Shown here in pieces: positions 1,741 to 44,324 of a stretch of 45,251 bases of DNA. A program made the translations under genes and the position numbers. The DNA is from Escherichia phage vB_EcoS-101114BS4. Within the stretch, counting starts at the first letter, position 1. Each line of letters opens with the position of its first letter. The notes below the pieces were generated by a model. That model saw nothing but the letters and a program-made list of their open reading frames with translations. It made no database searches and was not told the DNA's origin. The stretch is from sequence record NC_073061.1; one strand, given 5' to 3'.

Positions 1741-1780
1741 TTGACTTGCAACCAACATAGGGTCCATACTGCAACCAATC
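1741..1780 (+). promoter_or_regulatory. Sigma70-like promoter carrying two direct GCAACCAA motifs
   Basis: TTGACT (1741-1746), 17-18 bp spacer, CATACT; GCAACCAA at 1748 and 1771; 20 bp upstream of the ATG at 1799. Confidence 0.45.
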
Positions 1781-9970: not shown

Positions 9971-9990
9971 TTGTGTTTCCTCATTGTTGG

Positions 9991-10017
9991 TGTGCAACCA
10001 ATATAGTGCAACCAATA
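9991..10017. promoter_or_regulatory. Divergent control region with two direct TGCAACCAAT motifs
   Basis: TGCAACCAAT at 9993-10002 and 10008-10017, between the minus-strand start at 9970 and the scaffold start at 10120. Confidence 0.5.
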
Positions 10018-15266: not shown

Positions 15267-15580
15267 TTGAGGCGGCGCGACGCTTTTATGGCCCGCCGCC
15301 ACCCTCCGAAGATGTAGCCGCAAGTTTATGGGGCGCGGCCCCCGAAGATGTTTGCCCGTCTGTTGCGCTATGGCCCGACAACGCGAAGATAGTCGCAGTC
15401 TTCACAGATTGCTCTACGCAATGGCGCACCGGATTCGGTGGGGCATACGGCATCGACTACGGAGTTCTGGAGTGGCTATTTAAGATGCACGGCATCGAAA
15501 ACGAGCAACGTGCATTTAAAGATATAAAGCTAATGGAACGGATCGCGCTTGACGAAATGGCGCAACAAAACCCCGCATAA
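14904..15580 (+). CDS. Tail assembly chaperone frameshift product (lambda GT-like), made by a -1 shift near 15257..15263
   Basis: The -1 frame stays open for about 105 codons after the slippery site (KKLIEAARRFYGPPPPSEDV...QQNPA) and stops at 15578-15580. Confidence 0.65.
15257..15263 (+). other. Programmed -1 ribosomal frameshift slippery heptamer A_AAA_AAC
   Basis: aaaaaac in X_XXY_YYZ register three codons before the chaperone stop; conserved G/GT architecture of tailed phages. Confidence 0.65.
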
Positions 15581-15583
15581 TGA

Positions 15584-15750
15584 AGCGGGACAAGCGGGAC
15601 GTCCCGATCTGTCCCGTTTTGCCCCGCCCCCTGTAAAACTGCATATCTACTCACTTTCATTGCATAAACTCAAAGCGGGACAAGCGGGACGTCCCGATCT
15701 GTCCCGCCCCCTAAATATGCATACCTATTCAGATTTCGTGCATAAAACAA
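15584..15750. repeat. Two tandem units of about 90 bp, each with GCGGGACAAGCGGGAC, the palindrome CGGGACGTCCCG and TGCATA motifs
   Basis: aagcgggacaagcgggacgtcccgatctgtcccg occurs at 15584 and 15674; palindromes at 15595-15606 and 15685-15696. Confidence 0.85.
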
Positions 15751-15907
15751 ACGGGACAGAAAGCGGGACAAACAAGGGGCGGGACAAAGCGGGACAGCAC
15801 CCCGTCCCCGTCAGTGCTGCCGCGGGTTTCAGCCGATCGGGACAGGCGGGACAACTCCCAGTCTTTCAGACTAGACGGGGGTCAATGGCCCCCCTCGTCT
15901 GAGACTG
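15750..15907. repeat. Copy A of a duplicated iteron-plus-hairpin element (copy B at 43319..43527)
   Basis: Four to six GCGGGACA direct repeats followed by the imperfect long hairpin cagtctttcagactagacgggggtcaatggcccccctcgtctgagactg (15859-15907). Confidence 0.85.
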
Positions 15908-26054: not shown

Positions 26055-26135
26055 GTTATCATCTCCTATATTTGGTTGAGTTTTAGTATTGCACCGCTCA
26101 ATCAAGAATGCAACCAATTTTAAGAGGATTCAGCT
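26055..26135. promoter_or_regulatory. Divergent control region between the lipoprotein and lateral fibre genes, with a TGCAACCAAT motif
   Basis: GCAACCAA at 26110-26117 and a degenerate copy (ttggttga) at 26073; 18 bp upstream of the ATG at 26136. Confidence 0.45.
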
Positions 26136-28950: not shown

Positions 28951-28972
28951 TGCAACCAACCTATTGGTTGCA
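28951..28972. promoter_or_regulatory. Perfect palindrome TGCAACCAA-CCTA-TTGGTTGCA (candidate operator)
   Basis: 9-bp inverted arms with a 4-bp spacer, overlapping the stop codon of the HAD gene and 50 bp upstream of the next start. Confidence 0.6.
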
Positions 28973-30569: not shown

Positions 30570-30588
30570 CGTGTTGTCTCCAGGTATT

Positions 30589-30613
30589 AAAAAGGGCGTC
30601 CAACCGGACACCC
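30589..30613 (-). terminator. Internal intrinsic terminator in the leftward operon
   Basis: On the minus strand: gggugucc-gguu-ggacgccc hairpin (one G-U pair) followed by uuuuu. Confidence 0.55.
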
Positions 30614-30623
30614 TTAAGATAAT

Positions 30624-30648
30624 GCAACCAATCTAATTACGCAACCAA
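30624..30648. promoter_or_regulatory. Pair of direct GCAACCAAT motifs
   Basis: GCAACCAA at 30624 and 30641 (17-bp spacing) between the stop of gene 30650..30973 and the internal terminator. Confidence 0.5.
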
Positions 30649-30649
30649 T

Positions 30650-30973
30650 TTATTCATAAAAATTCGGGTCGCGCGCTACATCTACCAGATAAAGGTTGCT
30701 CATTCGGTTGCCGTAGTGCCCTGGCGTGCGCTGGCGACACACAACTGCGAAGCCTGGAGGGATTGTATTGCCGGTTTCGATAATCCACGCCACGCGCGCG
30801 CCAGACAGCTTCTTGCCGTTGCATTCGATACGCGTACCGCCATCGGCAGTGTTAAGGTTGCCAATCTTGCAGCCGGTGGACTTCAGACGGATGACGCCGG
30901 TCTTACTGTCGTAGGTGAATAGTTGGTTAGTCATTGCGACCGAAAAATCGATGGCTTCGAATGTAGTGTTCAT
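30650..30973 (-). CDS. Hypothetical protein
   Basis: 107-aa ORF with GAGGA RBS; a C-terminal H..N..N pattern is too weak to call an HNH nuclease. Confidence 0.5.
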   Translation of the reverse strand: MNTTFEAIDFSVAMTNQLFTYDSKTGVIRLKSTGCKIGNLNTADGGTRIECNGKKLSGARVAWIIETGNTIPPGFAVVCRQRTPGHYGNRMSNLYLVDVARDPNFYE

Positions 30974-33565: not shown

Positions 33566-33844
33566 CTACGCGACCAATTCAGCAACCAATAAATCGCAGT
33601 CGGCTATGTTGTCAATAACGCGAACGTCAGCACCGCGGCGGGCCATTCGCTCATGTTCTAGCACCTGGTGCGGCTTCGGTTTTCCGCCGGGGCGCTTCAC
33701 TTCGACGAATACTATGATGCCGTTGATGATAATAATCAGGTCGGGCGCACCTGCGCGCCCCTCCCATGCCAGTTTACGGCAGAATCCGCCGACCTCTTTC
33801 ACCCGTCGCATCAGGTGACTTTGTATCTTGCCTTCGGGTGTCAT
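33566..33844 (-). CDS. VRR-NUC domain nuclease
   Basis: APDLIIIINGIIVFVEVKRPGGK carries the PD-(D/E)xK signature in the VRR-NUC arrangement; 92 aa. Confidence 0.7.
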   Translation of the reverse strand: MTPEGKIQSHLMRRVKEVGGFCRKLAWEGRAGAPDLIIIINGIIVFVEVKRPGGKPKPHQVLEHERMARRGADVRVIDNIADCDLLVAELVA

Positions 33845-37395: not shown

Positions 37396-37419
37396 TTGGT
37401 TGCTAATTTACTTGGTTGC
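37396..37419. promoter_or_regulatory. Pair of direct TTGGTTGC motifs (reverse orientation of GCAACCAA)
   Basis: cttggttgc at 37395-37403 and 37411-37419 in the gap between genes 37430..37672 and 36553..37341. Confidence 0.5.
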
Positions 37420-39280: not shown

Positions 39281-39531
39281 TATTTCGTCTCCCAACGGTC
39301 AATTACTTTTTCCTCCGACGATACGGCAAAGCGAACATATTCCAGATTGGAGTCCGCCCAAATATAGAAGTCGGGGTTAGTAAATGTGGTGCGCTTAATT
39401 TGCGCGGGGTTATCGCGGCGTTTATCTATTACGGCAACGCGTGATTTAAAGTTGCCGGTACGTTCGAATAGCCAATAATAAGGGCGCTGGTCGCGTGAAT
39501 CCACCGCCTCGATTAGCGTGAAGCGTGCCAT
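39280..39531 (-). CDS. Hypothetical protein
   Basis: 83-aa ORF (MARFTLIEAVDSRDQRPYYW...) with GAGGA RBS. Confidence 0.5.
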   Translation of the reverse strand: MARFTLIEAVDSRDQRPYYWLFERTGNFKSRVAVIDKRRDNPAQIKRTTFTNPDFYIWADSNLEYVRFAVSSEEKVIDRWETK

Positions 39532-39544
39532 TGTCTCGTCCTCT

Positions 39545-39571
39545 AAAAATAGGCCCGCAGATTAGCGGGCC
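39545..39571 (-). terminator. Internal intrinsic terminator in the leftward operon
   Basis: On the minus strand: ggcccgc-uaaucu-gcgggcc hairpin followed by uauuuuu. Confidence 0.6.
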
Positions 39572-39579
39572 GGATAATA

Positions 39580-39705
39580 TTAATCTTCACCGCCGAGTTG
39601 TCTATAAACCTCGTCCGGGTCGTCGCCTCTTTCTTCGCAGAAGGCGGTGAATGCCGCCCAATTTTCTGCTATGAAATCGAGCGTGATTCTCATTTCATAG
39701 TCCAT
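39580..39705 (-). CDS. Small acidic hypothetical protein
   Basis: 40-aa ORF (MDYEMRITLDFIAENWAAF...) below the ORF-track size cutoff, ending at the internal terminator. Confidence 0.3.
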   Translation of the reverse strand: MDYEMRITLDFIAENWAAFTAFCEERGDDPDEVYRQLGGED

Positions 39706-39709
39706 TATA

Positions 39710-40228
39710 TTAATCTTCTAATTCGAAATAAGTTTCGACGATTGCTTTTAATTCCTGGTGGAACTCTTCCACGTCGTCATCTTCCAGCTTGGCAACGGAT
39801 TTAATTTCGAATTCTTCCAGCAGGTCGTCAAATTCGTCGTTTGCGTCGTCGTCATCACCGCCAGCAATAATAGCGGCATACTGCTTGATTTCGTCGCGCA
39901 TCTCTTTCAGCGGATCGGCATCTTTCTTGCCTTTACCTTTCGCCGGTGCTTTCTTAGATTTCGCCGGGGCTTCTTCTTCGTCGTCCGCGTCGTCTTCTTC
40001 TACGGCTTCTTTCTTAGCCTTGCCCTTTGCTGGCGCTTTTTTGGTCTTAGCCGGTGCTTCGTCTTCAGCGTCGTCATCTTCGACTACTTCTTCTTTTGCC
40101 TTGCCCTTAGCCGGGGCTTTCTTCGCTTCCTGTTTACCAACGGCAGCGCCAGCAGTTTCATAATGCTTAGCGATGGTTTCCAGTGCTACTACGCCGCGTG
40201 TGATCAGGTTTACGATTTGCTCAAACAT
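39710..40228 (-). CDS. Lys/Ala/Glu-rich repeat protein (histone H1-like composition), first gene of the leftward operon
   Basis: ATG 40228 (MFEQIVNL) with GGAG RBS; repeats EAPAKTKKAPAKGKAKKE; the upstream in-frame ORF extension is treated as 5' leader. Confidence 0.55.
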   Translation of the reverse strand: MFEQIVNLITRGVVALETIAKHYETAGAAVGKQEAKKAPAKGKAKEEVVEDDDAEDEAPAKTKKAPAKGKAKKEAVEEDDADDEEEAPAKSKKAPAKGKGKKDADPLKEMRDEIKQYAAIIAGGDDDDANDEFDDLLEEFEIKSVAKLEDDDVEEFHQELKAIVETYFELED

Positions 40229-40424
40229 TGTATATCTCCGATTGGTTAAGTTTAGGTGTCGGCAGTCAACTTCGTCGGTGGCCTTAACATAGTGCCAGGT
40301 TACGCGTTCTCCCTTTCGGGTAGTGGACCTGGTTATATAATCACGGTTGGGAATCCTGACACTTCGATCCGGCCCCTGCGTTGCCCCTCTCCAGTTTGCG
40401 TCCTGCATCCTGTCGACGGAGTGA

Positions 40425-40454
40425 ATAATAGATTGGTTGCAGGTGGGGTGTCAA
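40425..40454 (-). promoter_or_regulatory. Candidate sigma70 promoter for the leftward operon
   Basis: On the minus strand: TTGACA, 18 bp spacer, TATTAT; the spacer contains TGCAACCAAT; leader of about 190 nt to the ATG at 40228. Confidence 0.5.
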
Positions 40455-40465
40455 CAACTAATTTC

Positions 40466-40524
40466 AAAAAAAAAAAAGCGCCGAGGCAAAATGCGACGGC
40501 GCTAACCAATAAGAGACAATGAGA
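40466..40524 (-). ncRNA. Candidate small RNA unit (promoter, about 60 nt, intrinsic terminator)
   Basis: Minus-strand TTGAAA-N17-AATAAT (40532-40560) followed by hairpin gcgccg...cggcgc and a U12 tract (40466-40502); the transcript would contain ugucucuuauugguua. Confidence 0.3.
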
Positions 40525-40573
40525 CGTGATTATTATTACACGCGTGCGCGCCCGTTTCAATATACAAAAGGAG

Positions 40574-40602
40574 TTGACACCCTGCAATTTTAGGTGTAGT
40601 TT
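40574..40602 (+). promoter_or_regulatory. Candidate sigma70 promoter for the rightward operon
   Basis: TTGACA (40574-40579), 17 bp spacer, TAGTTT (weak -10), 30 bp upstream of the ATG at 40634. Confidence 0.4.
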
Positions 40603-40633
40603 CGTTGGTCATTAACCAATAGGAGACAGAACA

Positions 40634-40963
40634 ATGCATATCAACGACGCTATCGAAATGTTAACTAAGACCGTAAGCGGTGAGACAAGCCGGTCCTGGG
40701 CTTATACCGATGCCGTTGGTGCGGCGTTATTTGAAATCGAACGCCTGCGCAGTGTCGAAAAAGAATTGCGCGCCAAGCTGGAATTACTCAACGGTACGGC
40801 AGCAAGCAAGCTGCAAAAACACAATGAAGAAATGGAAGAATACAAAAAGCAGGTTATCCGTTTACGCGACGAGGGCAAGTCCTGGGCGATGATTGCCGAG
40901 TTGACCGGAATTAATCAGAGCACCGTGCGCTCCTGGGTACGCAATAATAAAACTTCTAAGTAA
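40634..40963 (+). CDS. Putative transcriptional regulator with C-terminal HTH
   Basis: 109 aa; C-terminal SWAMIAELTGINQSTVRSWVRN is HTH-like; first gene of the rightward unit. Confidence 0.5.
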   Translation: MHINDAIEMLTKTVSGETSRSWAYTDAVGAALFEIERLRSVEKELRAKLELLNGTAASKLQKHNEEMEEYKKQVIRLRDEGKSWAMIAELTGINQSTVRSWVRNNKTSK

Positions 40964-40973
40964 GGCAACGGCA

Positions 40974-43238
40974 ATGAGCTTAATTAAATTCGCAGTAACA
41001 AGACCCGCTAAAAAAGGCGAAAAAGCCAGGGCGGAAAACTTCGAGATGACCACTGATGAGTTTTTCGAATTTATCAATGATGCGAAAGAAATCTCCTCGG
41101 TGCACATCAACAAGACTGAAGATAAAGCCGAGTATGCGCGCCGCAAGCGTAAGGCCGATGGCATCGTGGCCTATACCAATGATGGGTTACGCCGCAAGAC
41201 CAGTGCGGTCGACCGCTCGATCCTGTTCTTCGATATTGACCGCACCGACACCCGCACATTACGCCGCTGCCGTAAAGCGTTCACCGACGCTGGTCTGGAG
41301 CATGTATTCCACACCACGACCGGCGACCGTCACCCACTGAAAGGCGGCACACGTTGCGCCCGTTTCCTGGTGCTCACTGACAAGCCTGTACCGGCTGAAG
41401 ACCTGGGCCGCGTCCAGTATGCGCTATTAGACCAACTGGGCCTGTCAGATGTGGACTTCGACGATTGTACGAAAGACACCAACCGCCTTATGTACCTGCC
41501 TCACCAGCAGTCTGTCATAAAGTGCCACTACGGAAAGCGCGCCCGTGTCCGTCGTCTGCTTCGCCTGGCTGACAAGCTGGGAGTGGAGAAAGAGGAAGTG
41601 CGCCGCGAACTGACCCAGGGCGCCGATGGCGTGGCGGACGGCATTCTGGATTGGTGCTTCCAGGCTGGCTTTGAACCACTGTCATCCGGTCGCGGTTATG
41701 AAGTGCCTTGCCCGAACGAGCACCTGCATAGCGGCGGCGGGTCGACGGCTATCATGGTTAAGGATGGCGAGATCCGTTTCAAGTGTATGCACACCGGCAA
41801 CGAATGCTGTTCCGAACTGAATAAACACCAGCACCTGGCGCTGCGTCTGATCGGCATCCCGGACCACTTGAACGTTGAACCGCACAACATGTCACGCAAG
41901 CAAATCGCCGCCATCCTTCCGGGACTGGACGACGAGGAAGTGGAATCATGCTATGAACATATTGTTGATGCGGTCGGCGACGGCGACGAGTACGGCGAAT
42001 GCACCGACGCTGACCTGGACAACGAACCTGTTGCACTATTCAGTAAGCACGACCCGATCATCGAAGGCCTGGTCAACTTCAAATCGACCTGGTATCTTGC
42101 CGGTGAGTCGAACATTGGTAAGTCGTTCTACGTGCTGGGCCAGATGGCGTCCGTATCTGCCGGTATTCCGTTTGGTGGCGCGAAGGTCGTCCAGTCGCAT
42201 TGCTTCTATTTCGACGCGGAAGGTGGCGAAGCCTCCAACCAGCGTAAGGAAGCACTGCAGATTAAATACGAGCACGACCTCGACAAGCTGCACATTATCG
42301 ACCTGCAATCACGCGGCTGGGATATTACCAGCAAGTCAGGCTTGCGCGAGGTTATCAGCTTTATCAACCGCACCGCTAACGGGGAGCCGGTTGGCCTGGT
42401 GGCCTTCGACTCACTCAACCAGACTGTAGCGCTGCGGTCCGCTGATGCCAAACCGTTCGACGAGAACAACGCCAGCGATATGGGCGAAGTGGTCAAGGCG
42501 CTGAAGGCCATTGCGGAAAATACAGGCGGCAGTGCGGGCGTCATCCATCACCCGGCTAAGGGTGCAAACGGCAGCAGATCCCCACGCGGGTCCGGCGCGC
42601 TTCATGGTGCTGTCGATTCTGCGTTCTTCCTGGAACAGCCGGACGATAATCAGCCAGGCCAACTCAACCTGTATCACGAAAAATCCCGTAACGGCATCAA
42701 GCAAGCGCCGCGTGGCTTCGTCCTGCTCAAATGCAAGGTGAAGGTGGATCTCCGTAAGTCCGAGGCGTTCGAAGCCCACCAGTCCACCAGCACCGGTCCG
42801 GACTTCGGCGATGTGGTTGCCGGTTGGGACGTCAAGCCAATTGCATCCACGCCACGCGACGAGACTCTCTACCTCGTACCGGTCGCCCTGGCACCGTTCG
42901 CTGTCGAACAGGCTAAGGCCGCAGGCAAGGCCGCAGTTAAGGAAGAGAACACCGCCGGACCGCGCAACGAAAAAGAGAAGGTGCTTTATGCGGCACTGGA
43001 AAAACTGATGGAAGATAACCCGGACCATACTGGATTCAGTAAATCGGCAATTGTCCGCCAGGCTGGACTCGCGAAAGGCGGAACATCGACGAAGGCAATC
43101 GACGATATGGTGGAGCGCGGCGTGCTCGGTTTTTATACAGATCCACACACCGGGGCCATCTATGGGTCGTCGAATCTGGTCATCAAATCGGATATCCCAA
43201 TCACGCTTTCGGCGACCGATGATGACCTGAAAGATTAA
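40974..43238 (+). CDS. Primase-helicase (primase/polymerase N-domain, zinc-binding region, P-loop helicase)
   Basis: 754 aa; ILFFDIDRTD, cysteine-rich CPNEHLH...FKCMHTGNECC, Walker A GESNIGKS, Walker B-like LVAFDSL. Confidence 0.7.
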   Translation: MSLIKFAVTRPAKKGEKARAENFEMTTDEFFEFINDAKEISSVHINKTEDKAEYARRKRKADGIVAYTNDGLRRKTSAVDRSILFFDIDRTDTRTLRRCRKAFTDAGLEHVFHTTTGDRHPLKGGTRCARFLVLTDKPVPAEDLGRVQYALLDQLGLSDVDFDDCTKDTNRLMYLPHQQSVIKCHYGKRARVRRLLRLADKLGVEKEEVRRELTQGADGVADGILDWCFQAGFEPLSSGRGYEVPCPNEHLHSGGGSTAIMVKDGEIRFKCMHTGNECCSELNKHQHLALRLIGIPDHLNVEPHNMSRKQIAAILPGLDDEEVESCYEHIVDAVGDGDEYGECTDADLDNEPVALFSKHDPIIEGLVNFKSTWYLAGESNIGKSFYVLGQMASVSAGIPFGGAKVVQSHCFYFDAEGGEASNQRKEALQIKYEHDLDKLHIIDLQSRGWDITSKSGLREVISFINRTANGEPVGLVAFDSLNQTVALRSADAKPFDENNASDMGEVVKALKAIAENTGGSAGVIHHPAKGANGSRSPRGSGALHGAVDSAFFLEQPDDNQPGQLNLYHEKSRNGIKQAPRGFVLLKCKVKVDLRKSEAFEAHQSTSTGPDFGDVVAGWDVKPIASTPRDETLYLVPVALAPFAVEQAKAAGKAAVKEENTAGPRNEKEKVLYAALEKLMEDNPDHTGFSKSAIVRQAGLAKGGTSTKAIDDMVERGVLGFYTDPHTGAIYGSSNLVIKSDIPITLSATDDDLKD

Positions 43239-43318
43239 TTTTTGCGCGCATTGGTTGCCAAATTGAGTGTTTTTAGCTGGTCGCATTGGTTGCCGTGTAG
43301 TGTAAATATAGTGAATAG

Positions 43319-43527
43319 TTATGCAGTTTTATTGCATAAAGTAAGCGGGACAAAAAGCGGGACAGACAGGGGGCGGGACAAAGCGGGACAGCACCCCTGT
43401 CCCGCCCCGGATGGCGCGGCTTGCAGGGGGGCGGGACAGGCGGGACAAACCCCAGTCTTTCAGACTAGACGGGGGTCAGTTGGCCCCCCTCGTCTGAGAC
43501 TGCATAAAATCCGGGATTGCATAATGT
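43319..43527. repeat. Copy B of the duplicated iteron-plus-hairpin element, flanked by inverted TGCATAA motifs
   Basis: Six GCGGGACA repeats (43345-43450), hairpin cagtctttcagactagacgggggtcagttggcccccctcgtctgagactg (43453-43502), ttatgcag at the left and ctgcataa at the right edge. Confidence 0.85.
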
Positions 43528-43718
43528 ACGGCAGCATGATGTGAATTGCTGTCGTCGACGAACTAGGCAACCAATGCGAGTTGCAAAATGGAGAGTGAAA
43601 AATGCAGTTTGCAGTTACAGCGGATAGGGATCGGCTTTTTCATACGCATGATTAATATTGGTTGCAATCAGCCTGGCACCTTGCTAGATTGGTTGCTCAC
43701 CAACATGAGGACTGAACA

Positions 43719-44045
43719 ATGAGAGCATTAATCTGGAATTACTCACTGGCAATGGCGGCGGCACAAGAAGCGGCGGAGTTCGCCGGTGAAGGGGCGGAAG
43801 CGGTCGAAAGACTAGCGGCAGCGTGGTCCGTTGTTCGCTTCGCGCAGCAGGCCATCGCCTGGATGCTTGAGCGCCGCTTCGACACGATGGCGGAGATCCA
43901 GCCGTTGGCGAACGCTATCCAGGACTACGCGCTTGCATTTGCCCGTGAGCGCCTGGCGTATCGCTTCGGTATTGGCGATAAGGCAGTGACAAACGTCGCC
44001 AGGATTAAAGCCCAGCGCGAACTATTCGCCCAGCTTGCGAAATAA
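43719..44045 (+). CDS. Hypothetical protein
   Basis: 108-aa Ala-rich ORF with GAGGA RBS. Confidence 0.5.
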   Translation: MRALIWNYSLAMAAAQEAAEFAGEGAEAVERLAAAWSVVRFAQQAIAWMLERRFDTMAEIQPLANAIQDYALAFARERLAYRFGIGDKAVTNVARIKAQRELFAQLAK

Positions 44046-44054
44046 GGGGCTAAA

Positions 44055-44324
44055 ATGAGCCGTAGGCGAGCTAAACAGCTTTCTTGGCACATTCCCCTGC
44101 ATTGCATACGAATATGGGCTAAGAACGCGATTGAGGGCGATTCCGTGTACTGGTGCTATCGCGATGACGTGAAGCCACTAACGCAGACTCGCTACTTGCA
44201 CCAGTTCGCAGCACAACATGATTTCTATGTGCGGACTTCCTTGCAACCAATGGGAATACGTATTACATTACGCCGGAAGCCCGCCGTTGAGCGGGTAGGC
44301 AAACACTGGAGACTGAGCAAATGA
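44055..44324 (+). CDS. Hypothetical protein
   Basis: 89-aa basic ORF; contains a GCAACCAA motif at 44243. Confidence 0.45.
   Translation: MSRRRAKQLSWHIPLHCIRIWAKNAIEGDSVYWCYRDDVKPLTQTRYLHQFAAQHDFYVRTSLQPMGIRITLRRKPAVERVGKHWRLSK

What the first reader, a model, noticed from the sequence alone, without database searches (positions are those of the whole stretch)
40230..40636. Conserved TTAACCAATNGGAGA translation-initiation context at the first genes of both divergent operons
The sequences before ATG 40634 (ttaaccaataggagacagaacaATG), before ATG 40228 on the minus strand (ttaaccaatcggagatatacaATG) and at 40503 (taaccaataagagacaATG, opening only a 23-codon ORF) share AACCAAT fused to the Shine-Dalgarno region. 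The half-motif overlaps the recurrent GCAACCAA element, so one factor might couple transcriptional and translational control. The leftward operon also has a leader of about 190 nt.
Basis: seen in the sequence. Interest (0 to 1): 0.45.

Follow-up and report, generated by a model that had tools for sequence, protein, structure and literature searches.

The report
Phage control hub hiding small RNA
Three look-alike sequences between two back-to-back operons of an E. coli phage are best read as two real ribosome-binding sites plus the gene for a predicted 60-base regulatory RNA that could pair with both; the same region also holds a folded RNA leader, apparently undescribed, that several phage families share.

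Summary
The window is a Dhillonvirus, 99.9% identical to Escherichia phage vB_EcoS_WFI. The three TTAACCAATNGGAGA-like sites are real: 3 found against 0.14 expected.

- **Sites L and R.** L (40235-40249, minus) and R (40612-40626, plus) are true initiation regions of the first genes of the divergent operons.
- **Site S.** S (40502-40516) is not a gene start. Its 24-codon ORF is frame-shifted among relatives. It lies inside a small minus-strand unit made of a near-consensus promoter, 24 unpaired bases, and a hairpin followed by U12. In 27 distinct relatives the promoter hexamers and 22 of 23 seed bases are invariant, and one clade carries compensatory changes in the hairpin.
- **Predicted pairing.** The ~58-nt RNA is complementary to both initiation regions. 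R ranks 1st and L 6th of 61.
- **DNA-level signal.** The AACCAA core of R also belongs to a palindrome, TTGGT-N5-ACCAA (3 copies, 0.01 expected), related to GCAACCAAT. That motif occurs 20 times, next to promoter-like sequences, in both orientations.
- **Leader.** The 190-nt leftward leader is a ~165-nt structured RNA with strong covariation and no Rfam match. It occurs in at least four phage lineages.

No expression data exist, so the sRNA and its targets remain predictions.

The parts
40235..40249 (-). Site L: TTAACCAATCGGAGA, the Shine-Dalgarno region of the first leftward gene. The gene is the homologue of WFI gp59 (CDS 39710-40228, 172 aa), with its ATG at 40228.
   Evidence: Invariant in most relatives. 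Changed to TTAACTAAACGGAGA in the Ioannina/L012 clade.
40257..40422 (-). Structured 5' leader RNA of the leftward operon. It has 7 helices and 37 base pairs: P1 closes the domain, P2 is a hairpin with an AGGAY loop, and P4-P6 are invariant.
   Evidence: Covariance model R1 scores 177 bits here and finds one copy in each of 31 loci. 95.8% of cells are paired, and 17 of 37 pairs show compensatory changes. No Rfam hit.
40425..40454 (-). P(left): TTGACA-18-TATTAT, with GCAACCAAT (40432-40440) in the spacer.
   Evidence: (11 of 12 consensus matches). Annotated as a promoter at the equivalent place in HK578. 21 of 30 positions invariant.
40466..40502 (-). Intrinsic terminator of the candidate sRNA: hairpin 40478-40502 followed by a U12 run (40466-40477). 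The T-run also lies at about -45 to -57 of P(left).
   Evidence: Fold gives -16.7 kcal/mol, z = -3.1. In the L012/L052/Ioannina clade, two base pairs change on both sides and one changes to G-U. The other four substitutions fall in unpaired positions.
40468..40527 (-). Candidate small RNA of about 56-60 nt. The predicted start is at 40525-40527 and the 3' end lies in the U-run. The 5' 24 nt are unpaired, with seed 5'-GUCUCAUUGUCUCUUAUUGGUUAG.
   Evidence: seed 22 of 23 invariant; start region 1 of 6 invariant. Complementarity to R and L.
40502..40516 (+). Site S: CTAACCAATAAGAGA. It is the antisense of the sRNA seed, not a translation start.
   Evidence: The ORF is frame-shifted among relatives. 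Opt212 carries a 5-nt duplication inside it.
40532..40560 (-). P(s): TTGAAA-17-TGtAATAAT, an extended -10 promoter for the candidate sRNA.
   Evidence: 10 of 12 matches, plus TG. -10 invariant at 6 of 6 and -35 at 5 of 6 positions in 27 distinct sequences. Annotated as a promoter in HK578.
40574..40602 (+). P(right): TTGACA-17-TAGTTT.
   Evidence: Read from the sequence. -35 invariant at 6 of 6 and -10 at 5 of 6 positions. HK578 annotates a plus-strand promoter at this place. Not listed by the consensus scan, because the -10 matches only 3 of 6.
40605..40619 (.). Palindrome TTGGT-N5-ACCAA around the predicted start of the rightward transcript. It has the position expected of an operator.
   Evidence: 3 copies in the window against 0.01 expected. 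The other two (9987-10001, 43689-43703) also lie just after a -10 hexamer. Arms conserved in relatives.
40612..40626 (+). Site R: TTAACCAATAGGAGA, the Shine-Dalgarno region of the first rightward gene. The gene is the gp60 homologue (CDS 40634-40963, 109 aa), with a C-terminal helix-turn-helix.
   Evidence: Pfam HTH_23, HTH_28 and Sigma70_r4_2. Best predicted partner of the seed in the whole window and among 61 initiation regions.

Best explanation
The three sites are not one translational signal. They are three parts of a compact early control region of a Dhillonvirus.

**What each site is**
- L and R are the ribosome-binding regions of the first genes of the two divergent operons.
- S is the template, read on the other strand, of a ~58-nt small RNA.

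**The small RNA unit**
- Host RNA polymerase would start at a near-consensus extended -10 promoter (40560..40532, minus strand).
- It would transcribe 24 unstructured bases, 5'-GUCUCAUUGUCUCUUAUUGGUUAG.
- It would stop at a strong hairpin followed by U12 (40502..40466).

**Proposed action**
- The unstructured 5' part is complementary to UAACCAAU(n)RGAGA. It can therefore pair across the Shine-Dalgarno sequence of the rightward mRNA: 17-18 contiguous pairs in this phage, covering almost the whole short leader.
- It can also pair with the leftward mRNA: 8 + 7 pairs around one mismatch.
- Pairing would block 30S binding and damp or shut off the two operon-first genes. This is the way P22 sar and P1 c4 RNAs block the ant ribosome-binding site, except that here the RNA acts in trans on two targets.

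**A separate DNA-level signal**
- The AACCAA core of R also belongs to a palindrome at the transcription start. The palindrome is related to the genome-wide, promoter-associated GCAACCAAT motif and is presumably bound by a phage protein.

**Shown and inferred**
- Shown: the sequence features, their conservation, and the complementarity.
- Inferred: that the RNA is made, that it pairs in vivo, and that pairing represses.
For: **A transcription unit**
- Promoter TTGAAA-17-TGtAATAAT. HK578's depositors annotated a promoter at the same place.
- The RNA folds as 24 unpaired nt plus a terminator hairpin, -16.7 kcal/mol, z = -3.1.

**Conservation signature in 27 distinct sequences**
- -10 hexamer 6 of 6 invariant, -35 hexamer 5 of 6, seed 22 of 23.
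- The 6 nt around the predicted start are variable (1 of 6 invariant).
- The true initiation region R is the least conserved segment (4 of 17).

**Hairpin**
- In the L012/L052/Ioannina clade, 7 substitutions include two double compensatory changes and one G-U change. None breaks a pair.

**Not coding**
- Frame-shifting indels lie in otherwise conserved sequence.

**Complementarity**
- R is the best non-self site in all 18,086 windows scanned on both strands: -25.2 kcal/mol against a mean of -9.8, sd 3.3.
- Among 61 annotated initiation regions, R ranks 1st (-23.9, 18 contiguous pairs) and L ranks 6th (-18.7); mean -12.4, sd 4.0.
- Dinucleotide-preserving shuffles of the seed match the real values with p = 0.001 for R, 0.006 for L, and 0.014-0.02 for the R versions of relatives. 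Jointly they do so in 0-1 of 3000 shuffles.

**Independence from R**
- The unit is kept intact in HK578-type phages, whose rightward gene and leader are different.
Against: - No expression data of any kind.
- Outside the WFI clade, R keeps only UAACCAA plus patches (energies -14 to -21).
- L is not exceptional among initiation regions (rank 6 of 61).
- A CU-rich RNA pairs with any Shine-Dalgarno sequence.
- There is no clean covariation. In the one clade where both the seed and L changed, the predicted energy falls from -18.3 to -13.3.
- The AACCAA of R is independently explained by a conserved DNA palindrome.
- The unit is confined to one genus. Guernseyvirinae phages with a homologous primase lack it, so there is no independent evolutionary replicate.
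They are not independent of it.
Confidence: 0.4

Rival explanations
1. DNA operator sites only. L, S and R are weak or half-site versions of the GCAACCAAT / TTGGT-N5-ACCAA motif, bound by a phage DNA-binding protein. A candidate is the small helix-turn-helix protein encoded by the first rightward gene. Each site lies in or downstream of one of the three promoters, so the protein represses or tunes all three. The nearness to the Shine-Dalgarno sequences follows from short leaders.
For: - GCAACCAA occurs 20 times against 2.0 expected, inside or next to sigma70-like promoter sequences and in both orientations.
- Its 9-mer is 98.9% identical at orthologous sites in two relatives, against 85.9% for the flanks.
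- The palindrome at R has two sister copies just after -10 hexamers.
- ACCAA sits at -18 to -22 from the ATG of six genes, five of them just downstream of a -10-like hexamer.
- gp60 has an HTH_23 / Sigma70_r4_2-like domain.
Against: - L, S and R all lack the GC that 15 of the other 16 AACCAAT copies carry.
- L and S have no second arm.
- L lies about 170-180 nt (about 33 nt in phages without the leader RNA) downstream of the nearest predicted start, not at it.
- This reading does not explain why 23 contiguous bases of S are invariant.
- It does not explain why S resembles a Shine-Dalgarno plus ATG, or why S is flanked by a promoter and a terminator.
Confidence: 0.25
2. Shared ancestry without a shared factor. 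The phage has spread a promoter-leader-start cassette by duplication, and L, R and S are diverged copies. S would be a decayed start region now constrained for another reason, for example as part of a small RNA with host targets, or of a promoter/terminator insulator for P(left).
For: - Two clearly paralogous cassettes exist: TAkATTGGTTGC-a/t-CACCAAC-ATGAGGA...ACAATGAGA at 10015..9985 (minus) and 43683-43720 (plus).
- S reads like a shortened version (ACCAAT-AAGAG-ACAATGAGAC).
- The U-run of the terminator sits where an UP element of P(left) would be.
Against: - S is the most conserved segment of the whole intergenic region, more so than the working start regions. It therefore has a present function in its own right.
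- The joint complementarity to both neighbouring start regions is unlikely for an unrelated seed.
Confidence: 0.17
3. AACCAAT next to the Shine-Dalgarno sequence is an RNA-level translational signal at all three sites. It would be an enhancer like the T7 gene 10 epsilon sequence, or the site of a translational repressor protein. The same factor might also read GCAACCAA in DNA.
For: - The motif lies 1 nt from the Shine-Dalgarno sequence at L and R.
- ACCAA is enriched at -18 to -22 of seven or so starts.
- From my own knowledge: L's GGAGATATACAATG is almost the T7 gene 10 ribosome-binding site, and both begin with UUAAC.
Against: - Site S has no detectable plus-strand promoter and no conserved reading frame, so it is not an mRNA start region.
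- GCAACCAAT works in both orientations, so it cannot be an mRNA signal.
- Only UUAAC of the 9-nt epsilon sequence UUAACUUUA is shared (sequence recalled from my own knowledge).
- The T after AACCAA and the Shine-Dalgarno part of R are not conserved.
Confidence: 0.08
4. The 24-codon ORF at 40519-40593 is a real micro-protein gene, and S is its ribosome-binding site.
For: - An ORF of 19-26 codons is open in every relative examined.
- In 17 of 22 sequences two indels cancel, so the ORF ends at the same stop.
Against: - The middle of the ORF is read in different frames in different phages while the nucleotides stay the same (MRRDYYYTRARPFQY against MRRELLLHACAPVSI).
- The conserved nucleotides are the hexamers of two promoters.
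- The Shine-Dalgarno sequence is weak (AAGAG) and no promoter lies upstream.
Confidence: 0.03

Closest known systems
P22 sar RNA and P1/P7 c4 RNA (phage antisense RNAs that block the ant ribosome-binding site; reviewed in PMC12197685)
   Same: - A short phage RNA with its own promoter and terminator.
- Its single-stranded part pairs across the Shine-Dalgarno region of a phage regulatory gene and blocks translation.
   Different: - sar is made from the strand opposite its target and overlaps it. c4 is processed from the same transcript as its target.
- Here the RNA gene overlaps neither target. It would act in trans on two mRNAs transcribed in opposite directions, with imperfect pairing.
- Those phages are temperate. 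This one shows no lysogeny module.
Trans-encoded base-pairing sRNAs of phages and prophages (lambda PreS, bioRxiv 10.1101/2024.10.31.621285; DicF, AgvB, lambda OOP, PMC12197685)
   Same: - About 60 nt, with an unstructured seed followed by a Rho-independent terminator with a long U tail.
- This is the typical architecture of an Hfq-binding sRNA.
   Different: - The characterised examples mostly act on host mRNAs or host sRNAs.
- Here the predicted targets are the phage's own early operons.
- No Rfam family matches.
Mycobacteriophage L5 stoperators and the 21-nt intergenic repeats of T1-like phage TLS (PMC11447400)
   Same: A short motif repeated about 20 times in intergenic regions of a phage genome, next to promoter-like sequences, and conserved in relatives. 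This describes GCAACCAAT.
   Different: - L5 stoperators and the TLS repeats lie in the direction of transcription. GCAACCAAT occurs in both orientations and as palindromes.
- Its binding protein is unknown.
- L, S and R lack the GC of the consensus.
T7 gene 10 leader / epsilon translational enhancer (own knowledge)
   Same: UUAAC a few bases upstream of GGAGAUAUACA-AUG. The L start region is nearly the T7 gene 10 ribosome-binding site.
   Different: Only 5 of the 9 epsilon bases are shared, so the proposed pairing with 16S rRNA helix 17 is not kept.
HK022 putL/putR antiterminator RNAs (PMC9378689), as a comparison for the leader RNA
   Same: A structured RNA placed directly downstream of an early phage promoter, at the head of a long operon with internal terminators.
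   Different: - put is about 70 nt with two stem-loops. This RNA is about 165 nt with seven helices and a multi-way junction.
- Relatives that lost the RNA keep the same downstream terminator.

Membership tests
Trans-encoded base-pairing sRNA (Hfq-type architecture) | Own promoter | tested here: met
   TTGAAA-17-TGtAATAAT. Hexamers invariant in 27 distinct sequences. This rests on consensus and conservation only; no start site has been mapped.
Trans-encoded base-pairing sRNA (Hfq-type architecture) | Rho-independent terminator with a U tail at the 3' end | tested here: met
   Hairpin of -16.7 kcal/mol plus U12. Compensatory changes in one clade.
Trans-encoded base-pairing sRNA (Hfq-type architecture) | Conserved single-stranded seed complementary to target mRNAs near the ribosome-binding site | tested here: met
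   Seed unpaired and 22 of 23 invariant. R ranks 1st and L 6th of 61. Shuffle p = 0.001 and 0.006.
Trans-encoded base-pairing sRNA (Hfq-type architecture) | Seed and target co-vary | tested here: inconclusive
   Seed and L are invariant in most phages. In the one clade where both differ, predicted pairing weakens (-18.3 to -13.3).
Trans-encoded base-pairing sRNA (Hfq-type architecture) | Transcript detected; Hfq or ProQ binding; regulation of targets | not testable with these tools
   No transcriptome of a Dhillonvirus was found in the literature searches.
Any described RNA family (Rfam 15) | Covariance-model match | tested here: not met
   Nothing significant in 39500-41200. The best overlapping hit has E = 0.5 and scores far below its gathering threshold.
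Cis-antisense RNA (P22 sar, lambda OOP type) | Gene overlaps its target on the opposite strand | tested here: not met
   The unit (40468-40527) lies between the predicted starts of the two mRNAs (about 40418 leftward, about 40609 rightward) and overlaps neither.
GCAACCAAT promoter-associated motif family | Full 9-mer consensus, including GC | tested here: not met
   L, S and R read TTAACCAAT, CTAACCAAT and TTAACCAAT. 15 of the 16 other AACCAAT copies are preceded by GC.
GCAACCAAT promoter-associated motif family | Position in or directly beside a promoter; palindromic partner | tested here: inconclusive
   Met for R, which has the palindrome TTGGT-N5-ACCAA just after the -10. Not met for L and S, which have no partner arm and do not lie at a start.
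Epsilon-type translational enhancer (T7 gene 10) | Complementarity to 16S rRNA nt 458-466 (UUAACUUUA) | tested here: not met
   Comparison with the epsilon sequence as I recall it. Only UUAAC is shared by UUAACCAAU.
Protein-coding micro-ORF | Reading frame and amino-acid sequence conserved | tested here: not met
   Indels shift the frame between relatives while the nucleotides stay conserved.
HK022 put RNA (for the leader RNA) | About 70 nt, two stem-loops | tested here: not met
   165 model positions, 7 helices and 2 branch points. put architecture taken from PMC9378689.
HK022 put RNA (for the leader RNA) | Lies directly downstream of an early promoter | tested here: met
   In about 12 distinct contexts, a -10 hexamer ends 6-9 nt before the element.
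HK022 put RNA (for the leader RNA) | Needed to read through downstream terminators | tested here: inconclusive
   Phages that lost the RNA keep the same terminator and gene order. This gives no support, but it is not a functional test.

The most novel reading that the evidence does not exclude
A virulent coliphage controls both of its divergent early operons with a 58-nt trans-acting RNA encoded between their promoters. That RNA reads in mRNA the same AACCAA-containing sequence that a phage protein reads in DNA. Next to it, the leftward operon opens with a new class of about 165-nt structured RNA that travels with its promoter as a module. This RNA heads unrelated early genes in at least four lineages of enterobacterial siphophages. 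It would act on the transcript or the transcribing polymerase, or be released as a stand-alone RNA, for example one directed against a host defence.
Probability: 0.25. Interest if true: 0.8.

Novelty: new variant of a known kind. Interest (0 to 1): 0.55.

Why it matters
- **A testable circuit.** Regulation of virulent siphophages of E. coli is almost unknown beyond gene lists. A recent paper on T1-like phages lists the function of their intergenic repeats as an open question (PMC11447400). This 400-bp hub offers a concrete circuit to test: three predicted host-type promoters, a promoter-associated DNA motif, and a candidate small RNA with two predicted targets a few dozen bases away.
- **An unusual kind of phage sRNA.** If the RNA is real, it would be a phage sRNA acting in trans on the phage's own early genes. 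Few such cases are known.
- **A new structured RNA candidate.** The leader RNA has strong covariation, 45 invariant bases and no Rfam family. It occurs only in virulent phages: 170 of 50,697 phage records and none of 5,426 complete E. coli genomes. This is the kind of candidate that has led to new riboswitches, ribozymes or polymerase-binding RNAs.
- **Annotation.** Several public records call ORFs across these RNAs, for example SO-1 gp46, the 245-aa Ioannina ORF, and CHD5UKE2_040.

Tried and rejected
- **Micro-ORF at S.** Rejected because the frame is not conserved.
- **Known RNA families.** Rfam at permissive thresholds found nothing, either on the window region or on six other loci carrying the leader RNA.
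- **Leader RNA as a put RNA.** Rejected on size and architecture.
- **Leader RNA as the antiterminator for the leftward operon.** I compared phages with and without it. The terminator after gp59/gp58 is the same in both, so this gives no support.
- **Leader RNA as a regulator of one gene family.** Rejected. The genes that follow it are 12 unrelated small proteins.
- **Leader RNA as coding.** One sense frame is open in several lineages. The Drexlerviridae copies have stops in all three frames, and the lineages differ by 1- and 2-nt indels.
- **Independent replicate of the sRNA in distant relatives.** Guernseyvirinae phages TS33, SenTO17 and phiEap-2 have a homologous primase and a divergent promoter region, but no such unit. 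Ioannina belongs to the already sampled L012 clade.
- **Second seed module.** The 9-mer GAGACAATG also lies at the start of the next gene downstream of the terminator (39529-39537). It is not enriched in the window, so this carries little weight.
- **The 'repeat_region' annotated in phage welsh.** It is the coding KAPAKGK repeat of the gp59 homologue, not a regulatory repeat.
- **Literature.** Searches for the motif string, for Dhillonvirus transcription and for structured RNAs of Drexlerviridae found nothing specific.
- **Host targets of the seed.** These could not be searched. The E. coli collection accepts only BLAST queries of 30 bases or more, at E-values that would require about 18 perfect matches.
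- **Collection scans for the leader core.** Scans of bacterial genomes and metagenomes gave only phage-like contigs, plus three chance hits in coding sequence: L058 and L071 and L060.
Full report
**Identity of the window.** The region 39600-41200 is 99.9% identical to Escherichia phage vB_EcoS_WFI and 85-91% identical to about 130 other Dhillonvirus genomes, including HK578, EP23, SSL-2009a and Sodalis phage SO-1. The finding lies in the intergenic region between two divergent operons.
- The leftward operon starts with a 172-aa protein of unknown function (phrog_3127). It continues with a PD-(D/E)XK exonuclease, a DUF2815 protein and the DNA polymerase.
- The rightward operon starts with a 109-aa protein with a C-terminal helix-turn-helix (HTH_23, HTH_28, Sigma70_r4_2). 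The primase-helicase follows.

**Check of the observation.** TTAACCAATNGGAGA with up to two mismatches occurs three times in 45 kb against 0.14 expected. GCAACCAA occurs 20 times against 2.0 expected, and AACCAAT 19 times against 5.3. The leftward promoter TTGACA-18-TATTAT (40454..40425) lies about 190 nt upstream of ATG 40228.

**Orthologous regions.** I aligned the region from 27 distinct Dhillonvirus sequences taken from IMG/VR, metagenomes and GenBank.
- Site L is invariant, except in the Ioannina/L012 clade.
- Site S is invariant, apart from a 1-nt deletion in that clade and a 5-nt duplication in Opt212.
- Site R keeps TTAACCAA, but the next base is C in all phages outside the WFI clade, and the Shine-Dalgarno part varies.
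- HK578-type phages have a different N-terminus and leader for the rightward gene, with no AACCAA.
- The near-identity of R with S and L is therefore partly specific to this clade.

**What site S is.** S is not a gene start.
- The ORF behind it is read in different frames in different phages while the nucleotides stay the same.
- No plus-strand promoter is found upstream.
- On the minus strand, S lies between a near-consensus promoter and a hairpin. The promoter is TTGAAA-17-TGtAATAAT (40560..40532), which HK578's depositors also annotated. The hairpin is followed by twelve U.
- The 66-nt transcript folds as 24 unpaired bases plus the hairpin: -16.7 kcal/mol, z = -3.1.
- The conservation profile fits a transcription unit. 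The -10 is invariant at 6 of 6 positions, the -35 at 5 of 6, and the 23 bases from just after the start to the hairpin at 22 of 23. The six bases around the predicted start are variable and carry indels.
- In the L012/L052/Ioannina clade the hairpin carries seven substitutions. Two pairs change on both sides, one changes to G-U, and four substitutions fall in unpaired positions.
- S is thus the best conserved stretch of the whole intergenic region, better than the working start region R (4 of 17 invariant).

**Why S looks like L and R.** The unpaired 5' part of the predicted RNA, GUCUCAUUGUCUCUUAUUGGUUAG, is the complement of S. It is therefore nearly the complement of L and R.
- In a scan of the whole window on both strands, the best non-self partner is R: -25.2 kcal/mol against a mean of -9.8, sd 3.3.
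- Among the 61 annotated start regions of WFI, R ranks first (18 contiguous pairs, -23.9) and L sixth (-18.7); mean -12.4, sd 4.0.
- Dinucleotide-preserving shuffles of the seed reach these values with p = 0.001 for R and 0.006 for L. For the R versions of relatives, p is 0.014-0.02. Jointly they do so in at most 1 of 3000 shuffles.
- In relatives the energies are -14 to -21 for R and -18.3 for L.
What is independent of that similarity is the promoter-terminator unit around S and its conservation.
- The most economical reading is a trans-acting small RNA that occludes the Shine-Dalgarno sequences of the two neighbouring operon-first genes.
- I put the existence of the RNA at about 0.7, and the full model, with L and/or R as targets, at about 0.4.

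**The DNA-level layer.** The AACCAA core is also part of a DNA signal.
- GCAACCAAT copies lie in promoter spacers, directly after -10 hexamers, or supply a TTGCAA -35. They occur in both orientations relative to transcription, often in pairs, and once as a perfect palindrome.
- The 9-mer is 98.9% identical at orthologous places in phages welsh and SO-1, against 85.9% for the flanks. Each genome has 20-22 copies.
- R is part of TTGGT-N5-ACCAA (40605-40619). That pattern has three copies against 0.01 expected. In R and in the copy at 43689-43703 it begins a few bases after a -10 hexamer; in the copy at 9987-10001 the left arm overlaps the -10 of the minus-strand promoter.
- ACCAA lies at -18 to -22 from the ATG of six of 61 genes, each the first gene after an intergenic gap. 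For five of them, this is explained by an operator-like site at the transcription start combined with a 20-25-nt leader.
- L is the exception, as it is far from any start. L, S and R all lack the GC of the consensus.
- The closest published parallels are the unexplained 21-nt intergenic repeats of T1-like phage TLS and the L5 stoperators (PMC11447400).

**The 190-nt leader.** Most of it (40422..40257, minus strand) is a conserved structured RNA.
- BLAST finds it in about 135 Dhillonvirus records and about 35 records of other phages. These include Drexlerviridae of the Tempevirinae (tunus, slyngel, PHB17, swan01), BUCT618-like phages, and sortkaff/HeidiAbel/KA2-1-like phages.
- It is absent from 5,426 complete E. 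coli genomes.
- Several Dhillonvirus lineages have lost it but keep both of its ends.
- A hand-built structure has seven helices and 37 pairs. On a MAFFT alignment of 15 sequences, 91.4% of cells are paired, against 29-49% when the 3' partners are slid.
- On the model-based alignment of 31 hits (24 distinct), 95.8% of cells are paired. 17 pairs show compensatory changes, and the covariation score is 0.358 against 0.117 in shuffles, with 0 of 500 shuffles reaching it. That alignment is fitted to the model, so the MAFFT figure is the more conservative one.
- Helices P1, P2, P3, P7 and P8 co-vary. The 45-nt arm P4-P6 is invariant in all lineages.
- In every context, a sigma70-like -10 ends 6-9 nt before the element and a Shine-Dalgarno plus ATG follows 20-45 nt after it. 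The genes that follow are 12 unrelated small proteins.
- The element therefore travels with its promoter as a module.
- It is not coding: the Drexlerviridae copies have stops in all frames, and the lineages differ by 1-2-nt indels.
- It matches no Rfam family.
- It is not a put RNA by size or architecture.
- Loss of the element is not accompanied by loss of the downstream terminator.
- Its function is open. My best guess is a cis-acting 5' domain that affects the transcript or the polymerase. The alternative is a processed stand-alone RNA.

**Comparison with known systems.** The predicted RNA works like P22 sar and P1/P7 c4, which block a phage ribosome-binding site by antisense pairing (PMC12197685). 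It is not a member of the cis-antisense class, because its gene overlaps neither target. Its architecture is that of trans-encoded Hfq-type sRNAs such as lambda PreS. A translational enhancer of the T7 epsilon type is not supported.

**Verdict.** The most likely account has three parts.
- Two real start regions (L and R).
- A predicted small RNA gene whose seed mirrors them (S).
- A separate promoter-associated DNA motif that shares the AACCAA core.

No transcript or binding data exist for any part of this region; only sequence, conservation and predicted pairing are shown.

Noticed in passing
window 40257-40422 (minus strand); also L039:1488-1653(-), L041:1454-1616(-), L042:1488-1652(-), L043:3000-3163(-): A structured RNA of about 165 nt directly after an early promoter. 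It is shared by Dhillonvirus, Drexlerviridae (Tempevirinae) and at least two other groups of enterobacterial siphophages. It has 37 base pairs, 17 with compensatory changes, a 45-nt invariant arm, no Rfam match, and is followed by unrelated genes.
   Followed up: yes
window 1748-1779, 9994-10016, 26110-26118, 28952-28971, 30624-30649, 33570-33590, 37396-37419, 43251-43293, 43567-43575, 43658-43696, 44243-44251: GCAACCAAT motif, 20 copies (2 expected), mostly in pairs and in either orientation. The copies lie inside or beside sigma70-like promoter sequences and are more conserved than their flanks in relatives. It looks like the operator or promoter element of an unidentified phage regulator.
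   Followed up: partly
window 43330-43450 and 15550-15900: Clusters of GCGGGACA-type direct and inverted repeats. They correspond to 'region A' and 'region B' annotated in Sodalis phage SO-1 as a 'possible ...' feature (note cut off in the table). One cluster lies directly after the primase-helicase gene.
   Followed up: no
window 39552-39571 (minus strand) and orthologues in L001-L013, L075: In the terminator hairpin after the first leftward genes, the loop appears as AGATTA in some phages and as its reverse complement TAATCT in others, with identical stems. The palindromic hairpin seems to have flipped.
   Followed up: no
window 39577-39604 with 39552-39571, and 30588-30650 (minus strand): Promoter-like sequences whose predicted start falls directly on a terminator hairpin. 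The cases are TAGACA-16-TAATAT before the 39571 hairpin, and TTGCGT-17-TATCTT, built from two ATTGGTTGC copies, before the 30615 hairpin. Their meaning is unclear.
   Followed up: no
window 40538-40554: The spacer of the sRNA promoter is almost invariant (11 of 17) and contains 13 alternating pyrimidine/purine bases, CACGCGTGCGCGC, including an MluI palindrome. A promoter spacer is not normally this constrained.
   Followed up: no
window 40526-40531 and 40561-40573 (relatives): Two indel hot spots flank the sRNA promoter and tend to cancel: +1 at one goes with -1 at the other in most sequences. This keeps the distance between S and P(right). It could reflect phylogeny or a spacing constraint.
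   Followed up: no
window 39710-40228 (minus strand): The first leftward protein is built of acidic stretches alternating with KAPAKGK repeats. It varies from 142 to 179 aa among relatives. Some records call it, and others call the rightward HTH gene, 'nuclease inhibitor gamma', so the public annotation is inconsistent.
   Followed up: no
L048, L050, L059 (upstream of the leader RNA); L039:1454-1500: In an unrelated 41-kb phage lineage, the promoter of the leader RNA has TGTTGGTTGCAA as its -35 region, the same TTGGTTGC core as in this phage. In tunus, the TLS-type 21-nt repeat ATAGCACTTTTTGTTAAAA occupies that place.
   Followed up: no
window 40226-40249 (minus strand): The start region of the first leftward gene, GGAGATATACAATG, is almost identical to the T7 gene 10 ribosome-binding site used in pET vectors (own knowledge; not tested).
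   Followed up: no
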